Origin: Methanobacteriota archaeon
Lineage (GTDB): Archaea; Thermoplasmatota; Poseidoniia; Poseidoniales; Thalassarchaeaceae
Assembly (NCBI GenBank): GCA_028355015.1
Contig: JAOMRN010000001.1
Location: forward strand, 193,229-257,228
Direction: 5' to 3'
DNA: 64,000 nucleotides
Part shown: one piece after another, positions 2,094 to 9,677 of the stretch
Numbering within the stretch: the stretch's first letter is position 1
Layout of the letters: every line of letters begins with the position of its first letter
Made by a program: the position numbers and the translations under genes
Notes under the pieces: model-generated
Databases searched by the model: none
Told to the model about the DNA's origin: nothing
What the model saw: the letters and a program-made list of their open reading frames with translations, nothing else

Positions 2094-2657
2094 CTACTTT
2101 TGCAAATTTATACTAATCAAGGGTTCTTGTTCATTTCTTATTGGGGCATAATTGGAGTCCATTAATGCCTTGAAACCTTCAGTTTCTTCGTCTAAATATT
2201 CAGGTTTTATGTTCACGAATCTTTTCAACATCCCTACATATGATTCGTACGCTTGGATATTTTCAATCATTGATTTTTTAATTGATTCCATAAATTCTTT
2301 TTCTTCTGAAATATTGGCTCTCGTCTTAACTTCGAAAGCACCGTTATCGTTCATTCTGAAATCATGTGTAGAGTTACCTTGATTGATTTTATTCACTAAA
2401 TGTTGAACTATGTCTGATATCTCATTTCCTATCTTCCAAGAAGACCTAGATTGAACTTCATACATTCCGTCTTTTTCGAAGTTGAGTAAAATTTCCCAGA
2501 TATCCTTCGGACTTTCAAAACTGGCATTAATGCCTCTATTTTTTGAATCTAATTCTAGATCTTTCCATCCTAGTTCTCGTAGCCCATCAACGGTTCTTCG
2601 ATACGCTTCGATTGAGTCTAGAGCCCCATCAACTGACATTCTAATCGTATTCTCCAT
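2094..2657 (-). CDS. Hypothetical protein, 187 aa, acidic, no cysteine; transcribed divergently from the Ubl gene
   Basis: Long ORF with shorter antisense shadow ORFs. No motif I recognise. The lack of cysteine argues against an E2-like enzyme. Confidence 0.6.
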   Translation of the reverse strand: MENTIRMSVDGALDSIEAYRRTVDGLRELGWKDLELDSKNRGINASFESPKDIWEILLNFEKDGMYEVQSRSSWKIGNEISDIVQHLVNKINQGNSTHDFRMNDNGAFEVKTRANISEEKEFMESIKKSMIENIQAYESYVGMLKRFVNIKPEYLDEETEGFKALMDSNYAPIRNEQEPLISINLQK

Positions 2658-2797: not shown

Positions 2798-3028
2798 ATG
2801 GAGGAGCAGTCAATGGACGATATCAAGACAAATGTAGAAATCGCCGACAGAACTGGACATTCATCCCTTTCGCTAACGAAGAAAGAGACACTAGATCTCA
2901 TCGAAGGCAATCAGGGATCTTGGATTTATCAAAATAACCGAATGGTACAAGCAAGTGATATTGCTGATGCTAATTGGGCCGATGTTGGTACAATCCGAAT
3001 AATGCCAGGTCTGACGGGCGGACAATGA
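2798..3028 (+). CDS. Small ubiquitin-like / ThiS-MoaD-SAMP-like protein (76 aa) with C-terminal ...RIMPGLTGG-Q
   Basis: Ubiquitin-sized ORF. Its C-terminal pattern is hydrophobic strand + P + GG (G74 G75 at 3017-3022) followed by a single Gln and the stop. It lies directly upstream of an E1-JAB gene. An alternative ATG at 2813 is preceded by GGAGG. Confidence 0.55.
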   Translation: MEEQSMDDIKTNVEIADRTGHSSLSLTKKETLDLIEGNQGSWIYQNNRMVQASDIADANWADVGTIRIMPGLTGGQ

Positions 3029-3065
3029 AATATGCTAGTTAGTATAAGTCGGAATTTCAAAGAAG

Positions 3066-3087
3066 ATGGATGGTCTTTTCCATCCAT
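3066..3087 (+). other. Perfect 8-bp stem / 6-nt loop inverted repeat (ATGGATGG-TCTTTT-CCATCCAT) between the Ubl and E1-JAB genes
   Basis: Read directly from the sequence in the 108-nt intergenic spacer. The loop is U-rich. Confidence 0.5.
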
Positions 3088-3136
3088 TATCTCAGTGGTG
3101 TAGAACAATGACTGCCGAATTGGTGCGAGGCCAATA

Positions 3137-4366
3137 ATGTCGAAAGGAAGTAAAAATATGATTAAAAAAAGTGAATTGATAATTGGAATAATAGGGGCAG
3201 GAGGTATAGGTTCTAACTTAACCTCTGTTCTTTACCCTACTTTACAGCAAGGTGATTTAATTGAAAGATTGGGTGATATAAGGATACGTATATATGATTC
3301 AGACATAGTAGAAAAAAGTAATTTGCCACATCAAAATTTCACGATTTCAGATGTTGGAGCTTTGAAAGTTATCAGCTTATGTAATCGTCTCTGGTCGAAC
3401 ACTGATAAATCCTTTACAGATGGACCAAATATCATTTTAGATCCATCTCCATGGGACATCAGGGTAAAGAGCGATTTAGATGAATGTGACTTAGTAGTCG
3501 TAGCAGTTGATTCTCATCAAGCTCGTAAAGTGGTTCATGAAAACTGTGAATCTTGGTTGGACTTACGATGTTTAGGCGATGGGTATATTGCGATAGATAA
3601 CACTGTTGATACTTCAGTAGTCTCTCAATTAACTCCTAATCAGGAGTCGCAGTCTTGCCAATTTGAAGGGGCGATTGAATCTGGAAATATACAGTTCGGA
3701 TATATGTCTGCGGCTGCTCATGGTGCGCAATGGGTCATCCAGTCTTTACGTATTATTTCGGGTGAGGCCAACGCCCAAAGACCTCTTCCTCAGATTTCAA
3801 ATATTACTTTTGGTACTGCTGCCAGATTAGAACAAGGAATAACTGATTCAAATAATGAGGCCCTGGATTCTTCAATATCGCCACATATTCATTCTCAATT
3901 AGAGATAGATAAGATGGTAAAATCTGGAAATCATGATTCTATAGTAATTAAGGAAACATTAGCAGCTTTCGCTGAGAAAAAGGATTGGATATCTCTTTGG
4001 TCTTTGGCAAATGAATTAGGTCGAGAGGTCAGTATATTATATGATCAAGAATTAACTATGTGGGTCGATATCGGCACTTCTGGACGCGTAGAGTTATCTC
4101 CTCCAATAGGATCTTTGACTCCCTATAAACTCTGGATACACACACATCCGAGAGATGCTTATTGGTCATCTACCGATAAAGATACAATTGCTATATATTC
4201 GGAAATTTTAGATGAGGCTATTGTCCTTGGTCATGACCACTTCAAAAGAACAATAAAATCGGATGACCAACACTTTGATTTCCTTGAAGACTTTGGGCCA
4301 TTAAGTCGATGGACTGATGAAATAATATGTGAATATTCTATGTCCGAGGTTTCAGAATGCCAATAG
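3137..4366 (+). CDS. E1-like (ThiF/MoeB/UbaA-family adenylation domain) fused to a C-terminal JAMM/MPN+ (JAB) metalloprotease domain, 409 aa
   Basis: N-terminal half: IIGAGGIGSN (3194-3214), IRIYDSDIVEKSNLPHQ (the D-x-D..SNL-x-x-Q E1 signature, with His where Arg is usual), and VVAVDSHQARK (Mg/ATP Asp). C-terminal part: ELGREVSIL (conserved Glu strand) and WIHTHPRDAYWSSTDKD (HxH..S..D zinc site; the His codons start at 4139). Confidence 0.75.
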   Translation: MSKGSKNMIKKSELIIGIIGAGGIGSNLTSVLYPTLQQGDLIERLGDIRIRIYDSDIVEKSNLPHQNFTISDVGALKVISLCNRLWSNTDKSFTDGPNIILDPSPWDIRVKSDLDECDLVVVAVDSHQARKVVHENCESWLDLRCLGDGYIAIDNTVDTSVVSQLTPNQESQSCQFEGAIESGNIQFGYMSAAAHGAQWVIQSLRIISGEANAQRPLPQISNITFGTAARLEQGITDSNNEALDSSISPHIHSQLEIDKMVKSGNHDSIVIKETLAAFAEKKDWISLWSLANELGREVSILYDQELTMWVDIGTSGRVELSPPIGSLTPYKLWIHTHPRDAYWSSTDKDTIAIYSEILDEAIVLGHDHFKRTIKSDDQHFDFLEDFGPLSRWTDEIICEYSMSEVSECQ

Positions 4367-4590
4367 ATGATGAAGAGTCAGTCAAAAGGTTGAATCATTT
4401 ACTTGACTCTTCAGATAAAAAATCAATAGGTATAGATTCGATAATAAATACGATAATAGGGGAAGATGCGGACGATGAAATCAAACAACTGGTGAAGATA
4501 GCTTTAGATAATTTTGGTGCAGGAATTACAATGAAGGAACTTGCAGAAGGTGTGATGAATTTATACAAATGGAGGGAATCTCAATGTTGA
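4357..4590 (+). CDS. Small acidic, probably helical protein (77 aa), translationally coupled to E1-JAB
   Basis: Its ATG at 4357 overlaps the E1-JAB stop (4364-4366) by 10 nt. No recognisable motif. A single Cys is the last residue. Confidence 0.5.
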   Translation: MPIDDEESVKRLNHLLDSSDKKSIGIDSIINTIIGEDADDEIKQLVKIALDNFGAGITMKELAEGVMNLYKWRESQC

Positions 4591-4689
4591 TCAGTGAATA
4601 CTGTAAATCTCTTAGTCCAAAACGTTATTTTTATCGTAAAAGTAAAAATCTCGCTCTTTCTAATTTTGTAATAAATTGGGTAGACATTG

Positions 4690-5817
4690 ATGCATAAGAC
4701 CGCAAAGTTTAAGCGCCTTGGACATAACCTCGTAAGTCCGGTAAAGAGACCTACCTATTTGGGACTGGAGTGTTCTCCCTTTTCGGGCCTTGAGGCGATT
4801 AAGATGTGCGGTACAGATAGAGAAAATAGTAGAATAAATAGTAGAGAAAATTGTGAAGAATGTGGGAGTAAATCGATAGAAGAAGGTGTCTCACATTATC
4901 ATTGCGGTAATTGTGGGATTCAACTTGAATCATTAAAGTATGACACTTGCTATACCTTTCCTAGCGAGGTTAAAACTACAAGAAGAACGAATAGTTCTTC
5001 TGATTTAGGTAGCCAGATAGGTATTGATAAGAGTAGTTCCTATCAATCAAGGAGATTAGCTGCTCTTCAAGATAGACATTCTCGTAGAAATCTTAGCTAT
5101 ACAGATAAGATAGTTAAAGAGGCGGAGATTGCTAATTTATCTCCATCAATTTGCCTTAAGGTTGCGGATATAATTTCCAAAGCTAATAGCCGAATGGAAT
5201 TAACTCATAACAGAGATGGCATGATTGGTTTACAGTTAATATCTACTAGAGAAGATAGGTCTCAGTATAGGCGTAGAGTATATGCTATCGCTGCTTTAGA
5301 GCTCTTGAACCGTAATTTAGAATCGGAAGCAATTCAAGTATTAGAAATTGCATCAGAATGGGGCATCGACAAAAGTGATATTTCCCAGGCGATTAAACTA
5401 ATCAATAAAGTTTCAATATCTGTAAATGACTGCCTTTCAGTTAGCGATATGAATAATCAAACAAAGGACCCATCTATCATCAGAAACGATGAACTAAATC
5501 ATTTTCTTTTCAATTTCCAAGATCATCTTTGTGAGATTATCAATTTTGATTCTGCCAAAGGAATAATTGCCTCAGCCATTGAAATACTTTCTAAAGAAGG
5601 TGAGCCTATTGGCAATGCATCTTTCATTAACAATGAAGGGAAATATCGTAATATGTCTCCTCAAAAAGCTTCCATGGAAACAATAATCGATTCTATGATT
5701 CATCTTGGATATTCGGATGAGATAATTAAGTGCTTCTTCAATAAAAAACCTGTACCTGGTATGACTTGGGTTAACTCTAGGCTGGGCCGACGTCGTCGAG
5801 CTCTCGTTGAAGATTAG
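4690..5817 (+). CDS. Divergent transcription factor B (TFB/TFIIB)-like protein
   Basis: Zinc ribbon CEECGS..x13..CGNCG (4852-4917). Next come GSQIG and RRLAALQDRHSRRNLSYTDKIVKEAEIANLSPSICLKVADIISKA, which resemble the B-linker and the start of the first cyclin fold. Then RRRVYAIAALELLNR..VLEIASEWGIDKSDISQAIKLI. The track start at 4687 is TTG; ATG codons lie at 4690 and 4804 (the latter preceded by GAGG), so the true start is uncertain. Confidence 0.5.
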   Translation: MHKTAKFKRLGHNLVSPVKRPTYLGLECSPFSGLEAIKMCGTDRENSRINSRENCEECGSKSIEEGVSHYHCGNCGIQLESLKYDTCYTFPSEVKTTRRTNSSSDLGSQIGIDKSSSYQSRRLAALQDRHSRRNLSYTDKIVKEAEIANLSPSICLKVADIISKANSRMELTHNRDGMIGLQLISTREDRSQYRRRVYAIAALELLNRNLESEAIQVLEIASEWGIDKSDISQAIKLINKVSISVNDCLSVSDMNNQTKDPSIIRNDELNHFLFNFQDHLCEIINFDSAKGIIASAIEILSKEGEPIGNASFINNEGKYRNMSPQKASMETIIDSMIHLGYSDEIIKCFFNKKPVPGMTWVNSRLGRRRRALVED

Positions 5818-7441
5818 CAATTCTCATTGTAACCTCATTCATTTGTTCTTCTCTGATTTGAGCCCCTCCTGGATCTAAATCATCTGCGTCTCTATTGATA
5901 ATTTGTAATCTTTCTCTCAATGCGACCATTTGTTCCAAATAATTTCTATTAACGTCAAACCTTTCTCTCAAATTATCATTTTTATCTTCTCTACGTTTGT
6001 GTCTTTCAAATCTCGAAAGATAATTATCCAATGTGTTTATATTTTTTCTTGACGTTTTATCATTAAGAAGAGCCATCACAATACTCCCTATTGCATCTCC
6101 AATTACCAGTTTACGTAGACTTGGATCTTCTACAATACAGAGTTCTCTTACTAGCCCATTCCTTTCTCTTTCCATACGTTGCACATTCTCTCTTCTTAAT
6201 ATCAAACTATTGATTTGTCCTTCAATTATATCTTGTTCTGAAATAGGTTCCGCAGTTACTCTGAATCTGGATTGATGTGGACCACGCCCTGGTATAACAG
6301 CATACTTAACTCCTAATTCTCCTGTGACCTCTATTCTCTTCCCTCCTTTCAGGACTACCTTTCCATCTGACTGGTCTATTATTCCTCTAAGGAATTTAAT
6401 GCCATTAATATCTGGATTTGATATTATATTTCTTTCAATATCACAGAATAAGTAATATTGTAGGCATTCGAGTTTCATTCTATTCTCATGACCGGGCGTA
6501 CTAAGGCTCCAATTAACTAATGTCGACCATATATTCAGGTCTCTAGGAACTCTTATTTTTCTCCAGGTATCATTTCTTCGAACCCTTATCATAAGTCTTC
6601 CTTTATCTACTATTAATGACCTAGGTGCCTTATATCCTTTGATGAACATTCTTGTTCGGTCTGACAATATTTTCGACCAGTTTTCCAACCAATAATTCCT
6701 ATCTCCATTCTTCAGAAGTGAATGTTGTATGAAATTAAATACTCTTTTATTATCTATTAGATCTAGGTTGTTTATTGGATGTTTAATGAGATTCTTATCT
6801 CCAATCTTAGTAAAACCTCTCGCCCAGTGCCAAGCATTAGGCTTGTTATCTAAATATTTATTCTCAGTAGCTAAGGAAATTGAGTATAATAGAATTTTCC
6901 AACTGAATGTATTATTCTGATTTTTTTCTAGAACCTCTCTTAAGTCTCTGTATGGTAATCTAATAACTTCGCCATCTAAGAAAAAGTTACCTGAAATCCA
7001 AGATAAATGGCTCCCATCTGGTAAAACCCATCCTCTCTGCAGCCTTTTCATATCATTTATTTCTTCAATTTTATATTCTCTAATTATATCCCGAAATATC
7101 CTTTCATCTTCCTTTGAAAATATTGTCTCAGTATCTTTCCTTTCTCGGTTCCAGTCGAAGATTCTTGTTTGTAATTTCTCAACTCTACTATCTAATGCCC
7201 AATCTCTGTTTTCTAAATCCAAAAGATTGAATGATTTCCAAACCTTTCTGATATCCGAAGAAGGGTTCCCAATGCTTTCTCTTAGTTCATCTGCTTTTTT
7301 CTTATCTGGAATCCAATCTAAGCTATATCCTGTAATTTTAGGCACTAGAAGTGTGCATATCTCACACCATATCTGAGTTTTACTGCTTTCTCCACAAGCT
7401 ACGCATTCACTCATTTTGTTCACCATTTTTATTTTGTTCAA
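5777..7441 (-). CDS. Zinc-ribbon protein of unknown function, paralogue A (554 aa)
   Basis: N-terminal CVACG..x9..CEIC. Co-linear with the upstream 579-aa ORF through shared motifs PDGS, W(K/S)..ILL, LCI..DP and GDAIGSIVMALLNDKTSRKNINTLDNYL. C-terminal charged coiled-coil-like tail. The 3' end overlaps the TFB-like gene convergently by 41 nt. Confidence 0.7.
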   Translation of the reverse strand: MNKIKMVNKMSECVACGESSKTQIWCEICTLLVPKITGYSLDWIPDKKKADELRESIGNPSSDIRKVWKSFNLLDLENRDWALDSRVEKLQTRIFDWNRERKDTETIFSKEDERIFRDIIREYKIEEINDMKRLQRGWVLPDGSHLSWISGNFFLDGEVIRLPYRDLREVLEKNQNNTFSWKILLYSISLATENKYLDNKPNAWHWARGFTKIGDKNLIKHPINNLDLIDNKRVFNFIQHSLLKNGDRNYWLENWSKILSDRTRMFIKGYKAPRSLIVDKGRLMIRVRRNDTWRKIRVPRDLNIWSTLVNWSLSTPGHENRMKLECLQYYLFCDIERNIISNPDINGIKFLRGIIDQSDGKVVLKGGKRIEVTGELGVKYAVIPGRGPHQSRFRVTAEPISEQDIIEGQINSLILRRENVQRMERERNGLVRELCIVEDPSLRKLVIGDAIGSIVMALLNDKTSRKNINTLDNYLSRFERHKRREDKNDNLRERFDVNRNYLEQMVALRERLQIINRDADDLDPGGAQIREEQMNEVTMRIANLQRELDDVGPA

Positions 7442-9146
7442 TTAAATCACAGAAATATTCGAATCTTGCTTCCATATCCATTTCCTGCAATATTTCATCT
7501 ATCATCCCATTAGAACACTCTTGTTGCTGTTGTTCAAATTCATGTTGCTGTCTTTGTATTTCTAAGTCATTTTCATATTCTTCAATTGCCCTCTCCATAT
7601 TTTCATCCATTTCATGATGTCCATGCATTGATTCTAGTCCTGCATGATAATCATGTTCAACTACTGACCAATAATTATAATCTTTCAATATTGATGTATT
7701 CTCATCTATTGCATTCAAGAAGAAGTCTAATGTGAATATATAATTCCTAGATACTACATCGTTGTGTAATGCTAGTACGTAACCTACTGCTATATCGCCG
7801 AATGGTAACTCATGATCATCCATTAAAGGATCTATACACAGATCTAATCCTTTATGTTCTACGTCATCTATATCCGTGATACTTTGTATGGCGTCTACTT
7901 TCAATTTATTAGATTCATCAGAAGATATAACATAGTTTATACCAGAAATCCCTTGAACTTTTAATCCAGATTTTTCGCTGCTATAGTCAATTGGAATTAA
8001 TGATGATTTATCTCCTAATTTCTCAATTTCATTATGCAATAATCTTGCAGATCGTATCTGTCTAAGGCTAGGTTTCCATAGTTCTAATTCTTTGGTCCAG
8101 TTCATCAATAGTCCTTGTATGAATTCTGATCCCTGACTTCTATTTGGCAATAGTGCACATGCCATTAATTTCCTCCAATCTCTAGGGTCATTACCAAGTG
8201 AACATGTTGAAGGTTTATTTCTATCAATTACCAGTATCTTCAATCTATGATTTTGAGTTACTAATATAGGGGAACTTTTACATTGATATTCTTCAATATA
8301 ATTCTCCTTCCCATAATATATATCAGTCCATAATTCTCCGATTATTCCAAAATTTTCATCTTCCATTAGTGTAATATTTTCTCTTATTATTTCAGAAGGT
8401 GCTCTAGTGTCTCCTTCTTCTCTACACTTTCTTTCAATGAATTCTAAGAACGGCGGAACTCTTGAAGGATTCATATAATGACCTGGTGGGACTTTCATTG
8501 GATAGTCAATACCTCTCCATGAGTTTTCTTTGATCCACCGACCCCATTCTTCTTCGTTATTTCCAAAGTAATTTTTATCTGGCAGAGTGGTGGTAATACA
8601 ATCTAATAATAAAATAAAATCACTCCAATTTTTAATTGAATTTATCCTGAGTGAGTTAGATAGCCATTCTGCGATATCGAGAATAGGTATGTTACGAGCC
8701 AATCTGTATCTTCCTATGAATATTTTTTGATTCTTCTCGATAGATAGGGAGGTGCCGTCTGGAAAATAATAATTACCTGGGCGTAGAATATTGAATCTCC
8801 TCCAATAGTCTACTAGTTCATCCCATTCTGTAGACTCATAAGTCCAATGTGCTATTGAATTCTTACGTTTGGATTTAAGAATTGGGGGGATCGATACGGG
8901 TACCTCAACCTCTTGTACTAAATGTCGAATCCTTTGTTCAATCTTAAGTCCTCTACCTGGTTTCAGAAATATATTGATTTCTTTATTCCTTTTCTCTGAT
9001 AAGAATGGCCTGACATCTGTCCCCATGAATTCAGATGATAACATTAGACAGCCTGAACATAATTCTAATTCGTTAGGGATTTTTCCTGCACACCATTTGC
9101 AATACTTAGTCATCAAATGAATATTGTTCCGACAGATTATAAACAA
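7407..9146 (-). CDS. Zinc-ribbon protein of unknown function, paralogue B (579 aa)
   Basis: N-terminal CKWC..x11..CSGC. Shares FPDGTS, NWSDFILLL, LCIDP and GDIAVGYVLALHNDVVSRNYIFTLDFFL with paralogue A at near-identical positions. Very acidic, Gln-rich tail. Its stop overlaps the start region of paralogue A. An alternative start lies at 9113. Confidence 0.7.
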   Translation of the reverse strand: MFIICRNNIHLMTKYCKWCAGKIPNELELCSGCLMLSSEFMGTDVRPFLSEKRNKEINIFLKPGRGLKIEQRIRHLVQEVEVPVSIPPILKSKRKNSIAHWTYESTEWDELVDYWRRFNILRPGNYYFPDGTSLSIEKNQKIFIGRYRLARNIPILDIAEWLSNSLRINSIKNWSDFILLLDCITTTLPDKNYFGNNEEEWGRWIKENSWRGIDYPMKVPPGHYMNPSRVPPFLEFIERKCREEGDTRAPSEIIRENITLMEDENFGIIGELWTDIYYGKENYIEEYQCKSSPILVTQNHRLKILVIDRNKPSTCSLGNDPRDWRKLMACALLPNRSQGSEFIQGLLMNWTKELELWKPSLRQIRSARLLHNEIEKLGDKSSLIPIDYSSEKSGLKVQGISGINYVISSDESNKLKVDAIQSITDIDDVEHKGLDLCIDPLMDDHELPFGDIAVGYVLALHNDVVSRNYIFTLDFFLNAIDENTSILKDYNYWSVVEHDYHAGLESMHGHHEMDENMERAIEEYENDLEIQRQQHEFEQQQQECSNGMIDEILQEMDMEARFEYFCDLIEQNKNGEQNE

Positions 9147-9215
9147 TTCAAAAAACAGTTACATTTACATCTATCCGGGTAAGTATTGAATAGATATGAT
9201 TTATTCGGGAGAATT

Positions 9216-9677
9216 ATGACAACCGGAGTTATGTGTTGCCCTCGTGACGGTAGCCCTCTAATATCTCCAGATAATGCTTCAAAGTCTGTATTTTCACGAA
9301 ATGGAATTTCACATTGTCCTAATTGTTCAGGTCTTGCACTAAATCCCGAGGCAGCCTATTCTGAAATCTGTAGTCAAAAATTAGATGCAATTCATGATGG
9401 ATTCGAAGATGAGGGAATTCCTGTAGATATCTGCTGTCCATTCTGTCAGACAGGTATGAAAGTTCGAGACTTTGCATTCAGAAAAATAGATGGTACTCTT
9501 ACTGAATTAATTGAAATAGATGGCTGTCCGAATTGTGCATCCATTTGGCTTGATGCTGGCGAGCTTCAACGCTTATCACCTCCAAGCGGTAATACTGATG
9601 CGAACCCCTCTTCCGAAGCTGGAGCACTCGCTATAGTTCTTGATTTGTTATTACACCTTCCACTAGTTTTTGTATAA
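9216..9677 (+). CDS. Protein with two zinc-ribbon modules (the second resembles the zf-TFIIB / PF13453 type) and a hydrophobic C-terminal tail
   Basis: CCPRDG..x21..CPNCSG, and CCPFCQ..x26..IDGCPNCASIWLDAGELQRL (the C-x2-C..WLD.GEL motif). The tail is AGALAIVLDLLLHLPLVFV. The track start at 9186 is TTG; I prefer the ATG at 9216. Confidence 0.55.
   Translation: MTTGVMCCPRDGSPLISPDNASKSVFSRNGISHCPNCSGLALNPEAAYSEICSQKLDAIHDGFEDEGIPVDICCPFCQTGMKVRDFAFRKIDGTLTELIEIDGCPNCASIWLDAGELQRLSPPSGNTDANPSSEAGALAIVLDLLLHLPLVFV

What the first reader, a model, noticed from the sequence alone, without database searches (positions are those of the whole stretch)
2798..4590. E2-less ubiquitin-like cassette: a GG-Q Ubl, one polypeptide fusing E1 adenylation and JAMM protease domains, and a coupled 77-aa acidic protein
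Seen in sequence. A 76-aa ORF ends ...VGTIRIMPGLTGG-Q. A 409-aa ORF starts 108 nt downstream. Its N-terminal half carries E1/ThiF/MoeB signatures (IIGAGGIGSN; IYDSDIVEKSNLPHQ; VVAVDSHQARK). Its C-terminal ~100 aa carry a JAMM/MPN+ zinc site (ELGREVSIL ... WIHTHPRDAYWSSTDKD). Its stop overlaps the ATG of a 77-aa acidic ORF by 10 nt. I find no UBC/E2-like ORF, no rhodanese domain, and no thiamin, Moco, siderophore or cysteine biosynthesis gene in the surrounding 8 kb.

Established knowledge. Beta-grasp GG proteins are adenylated by ThiF/MoeB/UbaA-type E1-like enzymes. JAMM enzymes either expose the GG (CysO/Mec+, QbsE/QbsD) or deconjugate (SAMP/HvJAMM1). Bacterial antiviral operons (CBASS Cap2/Cap3, Bil) combine E1, E2 and JAB activities.

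Inference. This looks like a compact module in which one enzyme both matures (removes Gln76) and activates the Ubl, with no E2. It sits in an archaeal accessory island rather than a biosynthetic operon. That placement points to protein conjugation, regulation or defence rather than sulfur transfer. I cannot tell from here whether this exact architecture has been described.
Basis: partly seen in the sequence, partly recalled or inferred. Interest (0 to 1): 0.85.

Follow-up and report, generated by a model that had tools for sequence, protein, structure and literature searches.

The report
Ubiquitin-like cassette of Poseidoniales archaea
The window carries a real ubiquitin-like protein next to a single enzyme that fuses an activating (E1) domain and a trimming protease (JAMM) domain. 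This trio is the core of a larger, unannotated gene block conserved across the abundant marine archaeal order Poseidoniales, probably a protein-tagging system with previously unseen partner proteins.

Summary
The 76-aa ORF is a beta-grasp Ubl with a conserved C-terminal GG followed by 0-2 variable residues. The 409-aa ORF is an E1-like adenylation domain fused to a JAMM-type domain, and every catalytic residue is kept in more than 70 related loci. Its stop overlaps the start of a 77-aa acidic protein.

The interpretation needs correcting in four ways.
- This is not an accessory island. The same roughly 8-gene block lies at the same chromosomal position in Poseidoniales (Marine Group II) genomes, with proteins down to about 50% identity. 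Paralogous cassettes occur across the order.
- The module is larger than three genes. Its most constant partners are two paralogous zinc-ribbon proteins (554 and 579 aa) that share a new domain with an invariant Cys. The other conserved neighbours are a protein with a TFIIB-type zinc ribbon and a weakly YbjN-like protein.
- "E2-less" therefore means only "no recognisable UBC". The Cys-domain family is a candidate E2/E3 analogue, and its fold is untested.
- Paralogues encode tandem Ubl-Ubl, Ubl-Ubl-E1, Ubl-AAA+ and Ubl-Ubl-Cys-domain precursors. This fits JAMM-processed conjugation better than sulfur transfer. Defence is not supported.

The closest known systems are bacterial Bub/6E, PRTRC and archaeal SAMP/UbaA. 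The cassette is a member of none of them. All of its proteins are "hypothetical" in public databases.

The parts
2094..2657 (-). A187: a 187-aa acidic protein, divergently transcribed from the Ubl. It is conserved in 17 loci and may be YbjN-like.
   Evidence: Synteny. No Pfam or PDB hit. hhalign against a Pfam-certified YbjN protein that occupies the same position in paralogous cassettes gives Prob 28%, E 6e-4 over 128 columns.
2798..3028 (+). Ubl precursor of 76 aa (71 aa if it starts at 2813). It is beta-grasp. G74-G75 lie at 3017-3022, followed by Q76 (3023-3025), which must be removed.
   Evidence: The family profile matches the C-terminal half of ubiquitin in register with GG. A16, D17, G20, H21, W42, P70, G74 and G75 are invariant in 44 sequences.
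3029..3136 (+). Conserved structured spacer between the Ubl and E1-JAMM genes. It has a 9-bp hairpin at about 3065-3088 and two further hairpins.
   Evidence: Fold z-score is -3.5, and 0 of 200 shuffles fold as well. In 6 orthologous loci the hairpin is kept, with 2 pairs changed on both sides, and about 60 nt are nearly invariant although the flanking proteins are only 66-77% identical. No Rfam family matches.
3137..3832 (+). E1-like adenylation domain (residues about 8-232). It carries G20xGGxG25, D54, D56, N62-L-x-H65-Q66, K77 and D125 (3509-3511). The invariant C174 (3656-3658) lies in the low-confidence 160-180 loop, taken here to be the crossover loop.
3869..4366 (+). JAMM/MPN+-type metalloprotease domain (residues about 245-409). 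It carries E297 (4025-4027), H335 and H337 (4139-4147), S344 and D347 (4175-4177).
   Evidence: The motif matches the Prok-JAB protein PRTRC A (HSHGNFPAYFSSTD against HTHPRDAYWSSTD). BFVD fold hits to small proteins of 130-180 aa include one named 'deubiquitination hydrolase' and one named 'metalloprotease'.
4357..4590 (+). S77: a 77-aa acidic protein, inferred to be all-alpha, translationally coupled to E1-JAMM. It has a conserved W72-R-E near its C-terminus and no GG.
   Evidence: Present next to E1/JAMM in 33 loci, including cassettes with no Ubl or BIG gene nearby. No PDB or Pfam relative.
4687..5817 (+). T376: a protein with an N-terminal TFIIB/Brf-type zinc ribbon, probably starting at 4804 (337 aa). 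The rest of the protein matches nothing.
   Evidence: Conserved in 20 loci. The family profile hits Brf2 (E 0.001) and P. furiosus TFB (0.003) at the ribbon only. hhalign against a genuine TFB gives Prob 70% over 38 columns.
5777..7441 (-). B554, a member of the BIG family. It has an N-terminal CxxC...CxxC ribbon (C13, C16, C26, C29) and a C-terminal core domain with invariant C435 (6137-6139), followed by GD and ALLND.
7407..9146 (-). B579, a paralogue of B554. It has the same ribbon (C16, C19, C30, C33) and the same core domain with invariant C437 (7836-7838).
9186..9677 (+). [not shown]
   Evidence: 15 loci.

Best explanation
This is a chromosomally inherited ubiquitin-like protein-modification system specific to Poseidoniales. 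Each step below is marked shown or inferred.

1. The Ubl is made as a precursor. In the window it is GG-Q. In paralogues it is a tandem Ubl-Ubl, or a Ubl fused in frame to the E1, to an AAA+ ATPase, or to a Cys-domain protein. [Shown by sequence.]
2. The JAMM domain cuts after Gly75, exposing the GG carboxylate and releasing any fused partner. It probably also reverses conjugates. [Inferred. It is the only protease in the cassette, and its zinc site is invariant.]
3. The E1 domain adenylates Gly75 with ATP-Mg (D125) and probably takes the Ubl onto the invariant Cys174 of its crossover loop. [Inferred from fold and conservation.]
4. The Ubl is then passed to target lysines by one of two routes. 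One is direct transfer, as in archaeal sampylation. The other goes through the invariant Cys of the two zinc-ribbon BIG proteins, B554 and B579, acting as a non-UBC E2/E3 analogue. [Hypothesis. I put the BIG route at about 0.35.]
5. S77, the TFIIB-ribbon protein T376 and the YbjN-like A187 are adaptors, regulators or targets. Three different transcription-type proteins recur next to cassette variants: T376, a genuine TFB, and a T7-type RNA polymerase. AAA+ ATPases recur as well. This suggests the system controls transcription-factor activity or turnover. [Speculative.]
For: Identity of the parts:
- Ubl beta-grasp fold with conserved GG, and profile similarity to ubiquitin residues 40-76.
- E1 fold and motifs.
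- JAMM motif and JAMM-only PDB hits.
- Every catalytic residue of both domains is kept in 69-76 loci down to 35% identity, whether the genes are fused or split.

Evidence for processing:
- The residues after GG vary.
- Precursors are polyubiquitin-like (L031, L033) or in-frame Ubl-Ubl-E1 (L055, L072, L059, L060), Ubl-AAA+ (L046) and Ubl-Ubl-X (L031).

Evidence for the partners:
- The BIG family is present in 34 loci, often directly upstream of the Ubl on the same strand.
- Its core domain has invariant C, D and D.
- Ubl-Ubl-X mirrors the BubAB Ubl-E2 fusion, which the JAB-E1 protein BubCD cleaves.

Evidence for a chromosomal, lineage-wide system:
- Conserved synteny.
- 69 loci, almost all from Poseidoniales genomes of both families.
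- None found in viral contigs.
- No sulfur or biosynthetic genes in the cassettes.
Against: - Nothing biochemical is known. Conjugation has not been shown.
- The Arg of the E1 'NLxRQ' ATP-binding motif is an invariant His, so the adenylation chemistry could be unusual.
- No Pfam JAB model detects the protease domain, and its fold was not searched separately.
Its fold was never predicted.
- Several cassettes hold E1, JAMM and S77 with no Ubl or BIG gene in the fetched flanks (L041, L042, L047, L074).
- JAMM plus GG-X is also found in the sulfur-carrier systems QbsE/QbsD and CysO/Mec+.
Confidence: 0.62

Rival explanations
1. Sulfur-carrier system. The Ubl is a ThiS/MoaD/SAMP-type carrier. The JAMM domain exposes its GG, as QbsD does, or hydrolyses an adduct, as Mec+ does. 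The E1 then adenylates it and it is thiocarboxylated, for a cofactor, tRNA thiolation or small-molecule pathway whose other genes lie elsewhere.
For: - The E1 is a minimal ThiF-like domain. Its second-best NCBIfam hit is the ThiS adenylyltransferase ThiF at 1.3e-13.
- JGI labels some Ubl homologues 'sulfur carrier protein ThiS', and one member gives a weak Pfam ThiS hit at 0.019.
- GG-X plus JAMM is the QbsE/QbsD pattern (established knowledge).
- No recognisable E2 is present.
Against: - No rhodanese, cysteine desulfurase, NcsA, MoaE, ThiG or cysteine synthase occurs in the window block or in any conserved position across about 70 loci.
- All ThiF, MoeB and UbaA equivalog scores fall far below cutoff.
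- Tandem Ubl repeats and Ubl fusions to an E1, an AAA+ ATPase and a Cys-domain protein are hallmarks of conjugation-type systems.
- The Ubl profile matches ubiquitin rather than ThiS or MoaD chains in the PDB.
Confidence: 0.13
2. Antiviral or conflict system related to the bacterial Bil, Bub and CBASS Cap2/Cap3 operons. The Ubl would be conjugated to viral proteins or to an effector on infection.
For: - The only PADLOC hits are to Cap2 E1-E2 models, on the E1 domain (best 2.1e-6).
- Architecture varies strikingly between paralogues (fusions, splits, gene insertions), as is typical of conflict systems.
- Some cassettes sit beside a T7-type RNA polymerase, which could mark an integrated element.
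- The nearest known architectures, Bub and Bil, are proposed or shown to be immune pathways.
Against: - The window-type cassette is syntenic and vertically inherited among housekeeping genes.
- No known defence regulators or effectors are present, and PADLOC finds nothing for the other six proteins.
- No copy was found in IMG/VR viral contigs.
- There is no compositional anomaly.
Confidence: 0.1
3. Peptide- or protein-tailoring enzyme of the MccB/PaaA/AclA type. The E1-like domain would adenylate the C-terminus or a side chain of a dedicated small substrate, the Ubl or S77, to make an intramolecular or small-molecule linkage rather than tag other proteins.
For: - The top sequence and fold neighbours of the E1 domain include AclA, MccB and PaaA.
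- S77 is tightly coupled to E1/JAMM, even where no Ubl gene is adjacent.
- The ATP-motif Arg is replaced by His.
Against: - UBA5, ThiF, Cap2 and BubCD score almost the same as those neighbours, so this is general similarity of the E1 fold.
- The substrate is a folded beta-grasp protein with a GG end, not a short peptide.
- S77 has no conserved C-terminal residue of the kind such enzymes use.
Confidence: 0.05

Closest known systems
Bacterial Bub operons, type I (Iyer-Burroughs-Aravind '6E.1'; Ye, Gong, Chambers and Corbett 2024, bioRxiv 10.1101/2024.11.21.623953)
   Same: - One polypeptide combines a JAMM peptidase with a minimal homodimer-type E1.
- The Ubl is made as a fusion precursor that the JAMM domain cleaves after a conserved Gly.
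- Ubl proteins carry 1-3 beta-grasp repeats.
- There is no E3.
- BubCD appears among the structural neighbours of the E1 domain.
   Different: - The domain order is reversed: E1-JAMM here, JAB-E1 in BubCD.
- The E1 here keeps an invariant Cys in the crossover-loop region, whereas BubCD has none and works through oxyesters.
- There is no DUF6527/BubE protein and no recognisable E2.
- The partner proteins BIG, S77 and T376 are unrelated to Bub proteins.
- The system is archaeal, chromosomal and syntenic, not sporadic and not linked to defence regulators.
Archaeal sampylation (SAMP1-3, UbaA and HvJAMM1 of Haloferax volcanii)
   Same: - It is an archaeal beta-grasp GG modifier activated by a single E1-like enzyme with no recognisable E2 or E3.
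- A JAMM protease processes and deconjugates.
- In Haloferax a transcription factor (TBP2) is a target that the proteasome degrades (abstract of PMC4895103).
   Different: - The E1 is not a UbaA/MoeB orthologue: NF047750 scores 19 bits against a cutoff of 450.
- The JAMM domain is fused to, or encoded next to, the E1 instead of lying elsewhere in the genome.
- The cassette has dedicated conserved partner genes.
- The Ubl occurs in tandem and as fusion precursors.
- No link to sulfur mobilisation is visible.
PRTRC system (TIGR03736 ThiF-family protein with Prok_Ub, Prok-E2_D, DUF2016-Prok-JAB, alpha-hel2 and ParB)
   Same: - It gives the best NCBIfam hit for the E1 domain (8e-14).
- It gives the only plasmid tblastn hits.
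- It gives the best target-normalised TM-score among BFVD hits (0.72).
- JAB and E1 genes are adjacent and overlapping.
- The JAB zinc motifs are very similar.
   Different: - The score is far below the family cutoff (51.6 against 144.75 bits).
- The Ubl is not Prok_Ub, BIG is not Prok-E2_D, and there is no alpha-hel2 or ParB.
- Gene order is JAB then E1 in PRTRC, and E1 then JAB here.
- PRTRC is carried on plasmids and ICEs.
Eukaryote-like ubiquitin operons of Caldiarchaeum and Asgard archaea (Ub, E1, UBC E2, RING E3, Rpn11)
   Same: - The best PDB match of the JAMM profile is the Caldiarchaeum Rpn11-like protease.
- The Ubl profile aligns with ubiquitin residues 40-76, ending at GG.
- Tandem Ubl genes resemble polyubiquitin.
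- Some cassette variants include AAA+ ATPases.
   Different: - There is no UBC E2, no RING and no multidomain UBA1-type E1.
- The E1 is a minimal domain of about 230 aa.
- The similarity to ubiquitin is marginal for a single ubiquitin chain (E 0.06-0.6).
JAMM-dependent sulfur carriers (CysO/Mec+ and QbsE/QbsD)
   Same: They combine a GG-X Ubl, a JAMM protease and a ThiF/MoeB-like E1.
   Different: Those systems sit in cysteine or siderophore biosynthesis operons. No such gene accompanies this cassette in any locus examined.

Membership tests
Ubiquitin-like beta-grasp modifiers (Ub/ThiS/MoaD/SAMP superfamily) | Beta-grasp fold | tested here: met
   The AF2 model (pLDDT 80.8) has beta-beta-alpha-beta-beta-(alpha)-beta topology. 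Nearly all of the top 50 Foldseek PDB hits are Ub-like domains: SUMO, ubiquilin UBL, Ub, NEDD8, ISG15 and Mth1743. E-values are only 5e-3 to 8e-2.
Ubiquitin-like beta-grasp modifiers (Ub/ThiS/MoaD/SAMP superfamily) | Conserved C-terminal Gly-Gly (or Gly) available for adenylation | tested here: met
   G74 and G75 are invariant in 44 aligned homologues. The motif PGLVGG plus 0-2 residues appears in about 50 locus-derived sequences. A few end in AG, FG or YG.
Ubiquitin-like beta-grasp modifiers (Ub/ThiS/MoaD/SAMP superfamily) | Covalent attachment to protein lysines (or thiocarboxylate formation) | not testable with these tools
   This needs biochemistry or proteomics.
E1-like adenylating enzymes (ThiF/MoeB/UBA, PF00899) | Family HMM above the curated cutoff, and an E1 Rossmann-like fold | tested here: met
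   PF00899 scores 42.7 bits against a cutoff of 28.1. Foldseek hits to UBA5, MccB, ThiF and Cap2 have probability 1.00.
E1-like adenylating enzymes (ThiF/MoeB/UBA, PF00899) | GxGxxG loop, Mg-binding Asp and conserved Lys | tested here: met
   G20, G22, G25, D54, D56, K77 and D125 are invariant.
E1-like adenylating enzymes (ThiF/MoeB/UBA, PF00899) | Arg of the 'NLxRQ' ATP-phosphate motif | tested here: not met
   The position is an invariant His65 in 74 of 74 loci. It aligns with the Arg of 'SNLNRQ' in 9egc.
E1-like adenylating enzymes (ThiF/MoeB/UBA, PF00899) | Catalytic Cys in the crossover loop | tested here: inconclusive
   C174 is invariant in 76 of 76 matches. It lies in the low-pLDDT loop 160-180, 49 residues after the Mg-binding Asp. 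Its role is inferred from position only.
JAMM/MPN+ metalloproteases | Catalytic signature E...HxH-x7-S-xx-D | tested here: met
   E297, H335, H337, S344 and D347 are invariant. The spacer is 6 residues, not 7. The region aligns with the motif of Rpn11-like, AMSH and PRTRC-A proteins.
JAMM/MPN+ metalloproteases | Family HMM (PF01398 or PF14464) above cutoff | tested here: not met
   No Pfam JAB hit for the whole protein or for 18 C-terminal domains scanned at E up to 10.
JAMM/MPN+ metalloproteases | MPN fold | tested here: inconclusive
   The AF2 secondary-structure order fits MPN: helices, then a beta strand carrying E297, a hairpin, a beta strand ending in HxH, and a helix carrying SxxD. BFVD hits of 110-150 columns to small proteins include a 'deubiquitination hydrolase' and a 'metalloprotease'. 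The domain was not fold-searched on its own.
Bub type I (6E.1) | JAB peptidase N-terminal to the E1 in one protein (BubCD) | tested here: not met
   The order here is E1 then JAMM.
Bub type I (6E.1) | E1 lacks a crossover-loop Cys (oxyester chemistry) | tested here: not met
   C174 is invariant. The Bub feature is described.
Bub type I (6E.1) | Ubl-E2 fusion (BubAB) and a DUF6527 serine protease (BubE) | tested here: not met
   No E2 or DUF6527 hit in the window block. A Ubl-Ubl-X fusion exists in paralogues, but X is not recognisably an E2.
PRTRC system | TIGR03736 above cutoff, with Prok_Ub, Prok-E2_D, alpha-hel2 and ParB neighbours | tested here: not met
   51.6 bits against a cutoff of 144.75. 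hhalign of the Ubl against Prok_Ub and of BIG against Prok-E2_D is non-significant. None of those Pfam families occurs in the block.
Archaeal SAMP/UbaA system | UbaA-type E1 (NF047750 equivalog) | tested here: not met
   19.3 bits against a cutoff of 450.
CBASS type II (Cap2/Cap3) and Bil | E1-E2 fusion with a CD-NTase, or BilA-D with an IAD-AAD-CYS E1 and a UBC-like E2 | tested here: not met
   PADLOC matches only the E1 portion of Cap2 models, weakly. There is no CD-NTase or E2. The E1 is a single adenylation domain.
UBC/E2 superfamily (tested for the BIG core domain) | Sequence-detectable UBC or Prok-E2 similarity, including HPN-Cys | tested here: not met
   No match by PDB profile, Pfam, NCBIfam, hhalign against six E2s (Prob 0.5%) or hhalign against Prok-E2_D.
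UBC/E2 superfamily (tested for the BIG core domain) | UBC fold with an exposed catalytic Cys | not tested

The most novel reading that the evidence does not exclude
Poseidoniales carry an order-wide, vertically inherited ubiquitin-like conjugation pathway. Its Ubl~Cys carrier or ligase would be a previously unknown, non-UBC zinc-ribbon protein family (BIG, with invariant Cys, Asp and Asp). Its precursors resemble polyubiquitin or are Ubl-enzyme polyproteins matured by the JAMM domain. Its targets or partners would be transcription-initiation proteins: a TFIIB-ribbon protein, a TFB and a T7-type RNA polymerase, with AAA+ unfoldases in some variants. On this reading it would be an independent archaeal invention of Ub-like control of transcription factors.
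Probability: 0.25. Interest if true: 0.85.

Novelty: new variant of a known kind. Interest (0 to 1): 0.68.

Why it matters
Poseidoniales (Marine Group II) are described as the most abundant planktonic archaea of ocean surface waters (abstract of PMC6461757) and are uncultivated. The exact 71-aa Ubl sequence was seen on 418 contigs, yet every protein of the block is annotated 'hypothetical'. I found no open-access paper describing the system.

If it conjugates proteins, three things follow.
- It adds a third archaeal solution for ubiquitin-like tagging, beside sampylation and the eukaryote-like operons of Caldiarchaeum and Asgard archaea.
- It provides a natural series of fused and split E1, JAMM and Ubl architectures for studying how such pathways assemble.
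- It supplies a candidate new class of Ubl carrier or ligase.

The recurrent linkage to TFIIB-like proteins and a T7-type RNA polymerase also gives a testable handle on gene regulation in an organism group that cannot yet be grown.

Tried and rejected
- Pfam, NCBIfam and PADLOC on all cassette proteins gave only the ThiF domain and one zinc ribbon.
- A single-sequence PDB search with the E1-JAMM protein gave only weak E1 hits.
- Pfam on 18 isolated JAMM domains gave nothing, so I relied on the profile-against-PDB search and residue conservation.
I used the third homology search to obtain admissible Ubl sequences instead.
- The idea that BIG is an E2 was tested five ways by sequence. None was significant. 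hhalign does place the BIG Cys on the E2 catalytic Cys, but at Prob 0.5%. I keep this only as a hypothesis.
- S77 and A187 profiles against PDB and Pfam gave nothing, apart from a weak YbjN link for A187.
- Beyond its ribbon, T376 is not detectably a TFB.
- The viral-contig scan found no E1-JAMM relative.
- Rfam found nothing for the conserved spacer. The CRISPR-DR25 hit at 7898-7919 (E 0.31) is chance.
- Literature searches for AclA, the top E1 neighbour, and for single-subunit RNA polymerase in Marine Group II found nothing useful.
- I rejected 'accessory island' on synteny and composition. I rejected 'bacterial distribution' because the few bacterial-MAG loci are short contigs carrying the archaeal gene order, which probably reflects mis-binning. 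That last point is an inference.

Full report
OBSERVATION. The three ORFs exist exactly as reported. The Ubl ORF is 2798-3028(+), 76 aa, ending ...IRIMPGLTGGQ. A 108-nt spacer follows. The second ORF is 3137-4366(+), 409 aa. The third is 4357-4590(+), 77 aa, pI 4.5, and overlaps the second by 10 nt. Public gene calls prefer M8 for the 409-aa ORF (402 aa) and M6 for the Ubl (71 aa). GC content of the region (0.36-0.38) is ordinary for the window.

THE E1-JAMM PROTEIN. Pfam ThiF matches residues 13-192 above its cutoff (4.7e-11). The best NCBIfam models are the PRTRC ThiF-family protein (8e-14) and ThiF (1.3e-13), all far below their family cutoffs. UbaA scores 19 bits against a cutoff of 450. 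PADLOC matches only the E1 part of Cap2 models, weakly.

An AF2 model built from 35 homologues has mean pLDDT 83.5. It shows two well-predicted domains joined by a disordered linker at residues 235-243. Its PDB neighbours are E1-like enzymes: AclA, UBA5, MccB, Cap2, PaaA, ThiF and BubCD, at E 1e-9 to 1e-6. In BFVD, a phage PRTRC_ThiF protein gives the best target-normalised TM-score, 0.72.

The alignment shows these invariant residues:
- G20xGGxG25, D54, D56, N62-L63-x-H65-Q66, K77 and V-A-V-D125-S.
- C174, within 'TPxQxxxSCQ'.
- E297, H335, H337, S344 and D347 in the C-terminal domain.

All of these are also retained in 69-76 tblastn matches across 76 loci, down to about 35% identity.

C174 lies in the only low-confidence loop of the E1 domain (residues 160-180), 49 residues after the Mg-binding Asp. 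That is where ThiF, MoeB and UBA5 carry their crossover-loop Cys, according to established knowledge. The assignment is an inference.

One oddity: the Arg of the canonical 'NLxRQ' motif is an invariant His.

The C-terminal domain gets no Pfam JAB hit. However, a profile of it finds only JAMM proteases in the PDB, 16 of 16 hits. The best is the Caldiarchaeum Rpn11-like protein 6fjv (E 0.006), followed by AMSH-LP, Sst2 and STAMBP. Its zinc motif, HTHP-RDAYWSSTD, closely matches that of the Pfam-certified Prok-JAB protein PRTRC A, HSHGNFPAYFSSTD. I accept it as a JAMM/MPN+ domain with a spacer one residue shorter than usual. Its fold was not searched separately.

THE UBL. Locus-derived and database homologues (343 proteins at E <= 1e-3) share the pattern xTVEIADxTGHxxLxLTxxET...W(I/V)(F/Y)...VR(I/V)xPGLVGG. 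A16, D17, G20, H21, W42, P70, G74 and G75 are invariant in 44 sequences. The residues after GG are variable: none, Q, F, L, N, E, I, Y, C, LC, LY, FY or LG.

The AF2 model (pLDDT 80.8) has the beta-grasp order of elements. Nearly all of its 50 best PDB neighbours are ubiquitin-like domains, although their E-values are modest (5e-3 to 8e-2). The family profile aligns with ubiquitin residues 40-76, in register with the terminal GG. For a single ubiquitin chain this is marginal (E 0.06-0.6). The very low E-values for polyubiquitin chains come from summed repeats.

GENOMIC CONTEXT. The window is not an accessory island. The E1-JAMM protein has 238 close homologues of about 400 aa, but only 380 clusters among 1.84 billion representatives reach E <= 1e-3. 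It is therefore a narrow, divergent family.

A scan of one genome per GTDB species found 69 loci. Almost all are from Poseidoniales, covering both Poseidoniaceae and Thalassarchaeaceae. Two single-cell genomes are 98-99% identical to the window. The few loci assigned to bacterial MAGs are short contigs with the same archaeal gene order, so I take them to be mis-binned. That is an inference.

Around orthologues with 50-77% identity the same block recurs at the same chromosomal place, in this order:
- methylmalonyl-CoA mutase-MeaB (-)
- A187 (-)
- Ubl (+)
- E1-JAMM (+)
- S77 (+)
- T376 (+)
- B554 (-)
- B579 (-)
- LysE (-)
- AMP-binding enzyme (-)

No relative was found in IMG/VR viral contigs. 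All of these proteins are 'hypothetical protein' in NCBI and JGI.

PARALOGOUS CASSETTES. Clustering the ORFs of all loci gives the following picture.
- Outside the window-type cassette, E1 (about 225 aa) and JAMM (about 175 aa) are separate genes with overlapping ends. Stand-alone versions also appear. The fusion in the window is therefore a derived state.
- The Ubl occurs as head-to-tail tandem repeats (…VPGLVGG-AKLIR-IEIAD…).
- The Ubl occurs as in-frame Ubl-Ubl-E1 (L055, L072, L059, L060).
- The Ubl occurs as Ubl-AAA+ ATPase (L046:4550-6223, Pfam AAA 4e-20).
- The Ubl occurs as Ubl-Ubl-X (L031:7535-8986).
- S77 accompanies E1/JAMM in 33 loci, even where no Ubl gene lies in the fetched flanks.
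- The BIG family (window B554 and B579) has 52 members in 34 loci. It often lies directly upstream of the Ubl on the same strand.
- BIG, a protein of about 270 aa that sits between Ubl and E1 in some loci (f22), and X share a core of about 105-120 aa. In the numbering of alignment A5 (first sequence), C94, D108 and D120 are invariant. The pattern is 'h-C-I-(D/E)-P ... GD-hh-x-x-hh-L-A-L-x-N-D'. C94 corresponds to C435 in B554 and C437 in B579.

IS IT REALLY E2-LESS?

The BIG core has the ingredients expected of a thioester carrier, namely an invariant Cys followed about 13 residues later by a conserved helix, and N-terminal zinc ribbons. The Ubl-Ubl-X fusion mirrors the Ubl-E2 fusion BubAB, which the JAB-E1 protein BubCD cleaves in Bub systems.

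Every sequence test for E2 homology was non-significant, however. BIG as an E2/E3 analogue is therefore a hypothesis, which I put at about 0.35. It is not a finding.

OTHER PARTNERS.
- T376 has a TFIIB/Brf-type zinc ribbon: Brf2 at E 0.001, P. furiosus TFB at 0.003, and Prob 70% against a genuine TFB. Nothing else in the protein is recognisable.
- Other cassette variants carry a genuine TFB plus an AAA+ ATPase (L061, L073).
- In 10 loci a T7-type single-subunit RNA polymerase lies within 3 kb of the cassette (Pfam RNA_pol 5e-47, T7 RNAP 2e-30).
- A187 is weakly YbjN-like.
- S77 has no detectable relatives.

MECHANISM. The best-supported reading has four steps: JAMM-dependent maturation of GG-X or polyprotein precursors; E1 adenylation and probable thioester formation on C174; transfer to targets, either directly or through BIG; and reversal by the JAMM domain. 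The sequence anatomy and its conservation are shown. All of the chemistry is inferred.

Sulfur-carrier function is the main rival. It has no contextual support in about 70 loci. Defence is unsupported by context but is not excluded for the more variable paralogues.

COMPARISON WITH KNOWN SYSTEMS.
- The nearest architecture is Bub type I, the '6e' type of Iyer et al. 2006: a JAB-E1 fusion plus a protein with 1-3 Ubl repeats. Four things differ here. The domain order is reversed, the E1 keeps a Cys, there is no DUF6527 protein and no recognisable E2, and the system is archaeal and syntenic.
- A Jab-E1 fusion in methanogen RC1 was noted in 2010.
- RING and UCH genes were reported from one MGII single-cell genome in 2015.
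- I found no description of this cassette in the open literature.

I rate it a new variant of a known kind.

SIDE OBSERVATION. The Ubl-E1 spacer is a conserved structured RNA. Its fold z-score is -3.5. Its hairpin is kept with compensatory changes in six loci. A differently sequenced but similarly hairpin-rich spacer occurs in the 50%-identity orthologues. No Rfam family matches. It may set the ratio of Ubl to enzyme.

Noticed in passing
window 3029-3136 (+); also L004:7872-8000, L001:7888-8000, L010:2194-2310, L011:8894-9010, L012:3549-3660: The 108-nt spacer between the Ubl and E1-JAMM genes is a conserved structured element. It folds at z = -3.5, has a 9-bp hairpin kept with two compensatory pairs, and includes about 60 nt that are nearly invariant although the flanking proteins are only 66-77% identical. 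More distant orthologues (L002, L015-L019, L022, L026) have a different but also hairpin-rich spacer with a shared 'ACGTAAGG...GGTTGC' frame. No Rfam family matches.
   Followed up: partly
L031:828-4727, L046:1413-4313, L057:1774-5622, L039:1836-5459, L072:1441-4044, L034:550-4839(-), L036:213-4352(-): A T7-type single-subunit RNA polymerase (Pfam RNA_pol 5e-47; T7 RNAP in the PDB at 2e-30) lies within about 3 kb of paralogous Ubl/E1/JAMM/BIG cassettes in 10 Poseidoniales loci. In most of them it is on the same strand as the cassette and upstream of it. I found no paper mentioning such a polymerase in Marine Group II archaea. Whether these loci are integrated elements is open.
   Followed up: partly
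L046:4550-6223; L061:1997-3400; L073:3339-4823: Classical AAA+ ATPases are part of some cassette variants. In L046 a Ubl domain ending in GLVGG is fused to the N-terminus of the ATPase. In L061 and L073 the ATPase follows a genuine TFB gene (L061:953-1972, Pfam TFIIB 1.3e-25).
   Followed up: partly
window 3329-3331 (His65 of the E1 domain): The Arg of the E1 'NLxRQ' ATP-binding motif is replaced by His in all 74 loci examined. This is an unusual and strictly conserved deviation for an E1-like enzyme.
   Followed up: partly
L021, L032, L036, L037, L039: Contigs assigned to Verrucomicrobia, Acidiferrobacter, Acidimicrobiaceae and Gammaproteobacteria MAGs carry the archaeal cassette in Poseidoniales gene order, on contigs of 5-13 kb. 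These are probably binning errors in public MAGs.
   Followed up: no
L041, L042, L047, L074 (for example L042:8977-10420): Some genomes have only E1, JAMM and S77 next to a YbjN-family gene and the class II ribonucleotide reductase, with no Ubl or BIG gene in the fetched flanks. L046 has the same context plus an inserted set of T7-type RNA polymerase, Ubl-AAA+, Ubl and BIG genes. The Ubl for these cassettes may be encoded elsewhere in the genome.
   Followed up: no
window 5777-5817 and 7407-7441: Gene ends overlap in two places. T376(+) and B554(-) converge and overlap by 41 nt. B579(-) and B554(-) overlap by 35 nt if the listed TTG starts are used. The true starts of B554, B579 and T376 are uncertain, and exact-sequence look-ups of the listed B554 and B579 ORFs failed.
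   Followed up: no
L018:7-222 and 329-550: Two separate Ubl genes lie in tandem upstream of a fused E1-JAMM gene, so Ubl copy number varies even within the window-type cassette.
   Followed up: no
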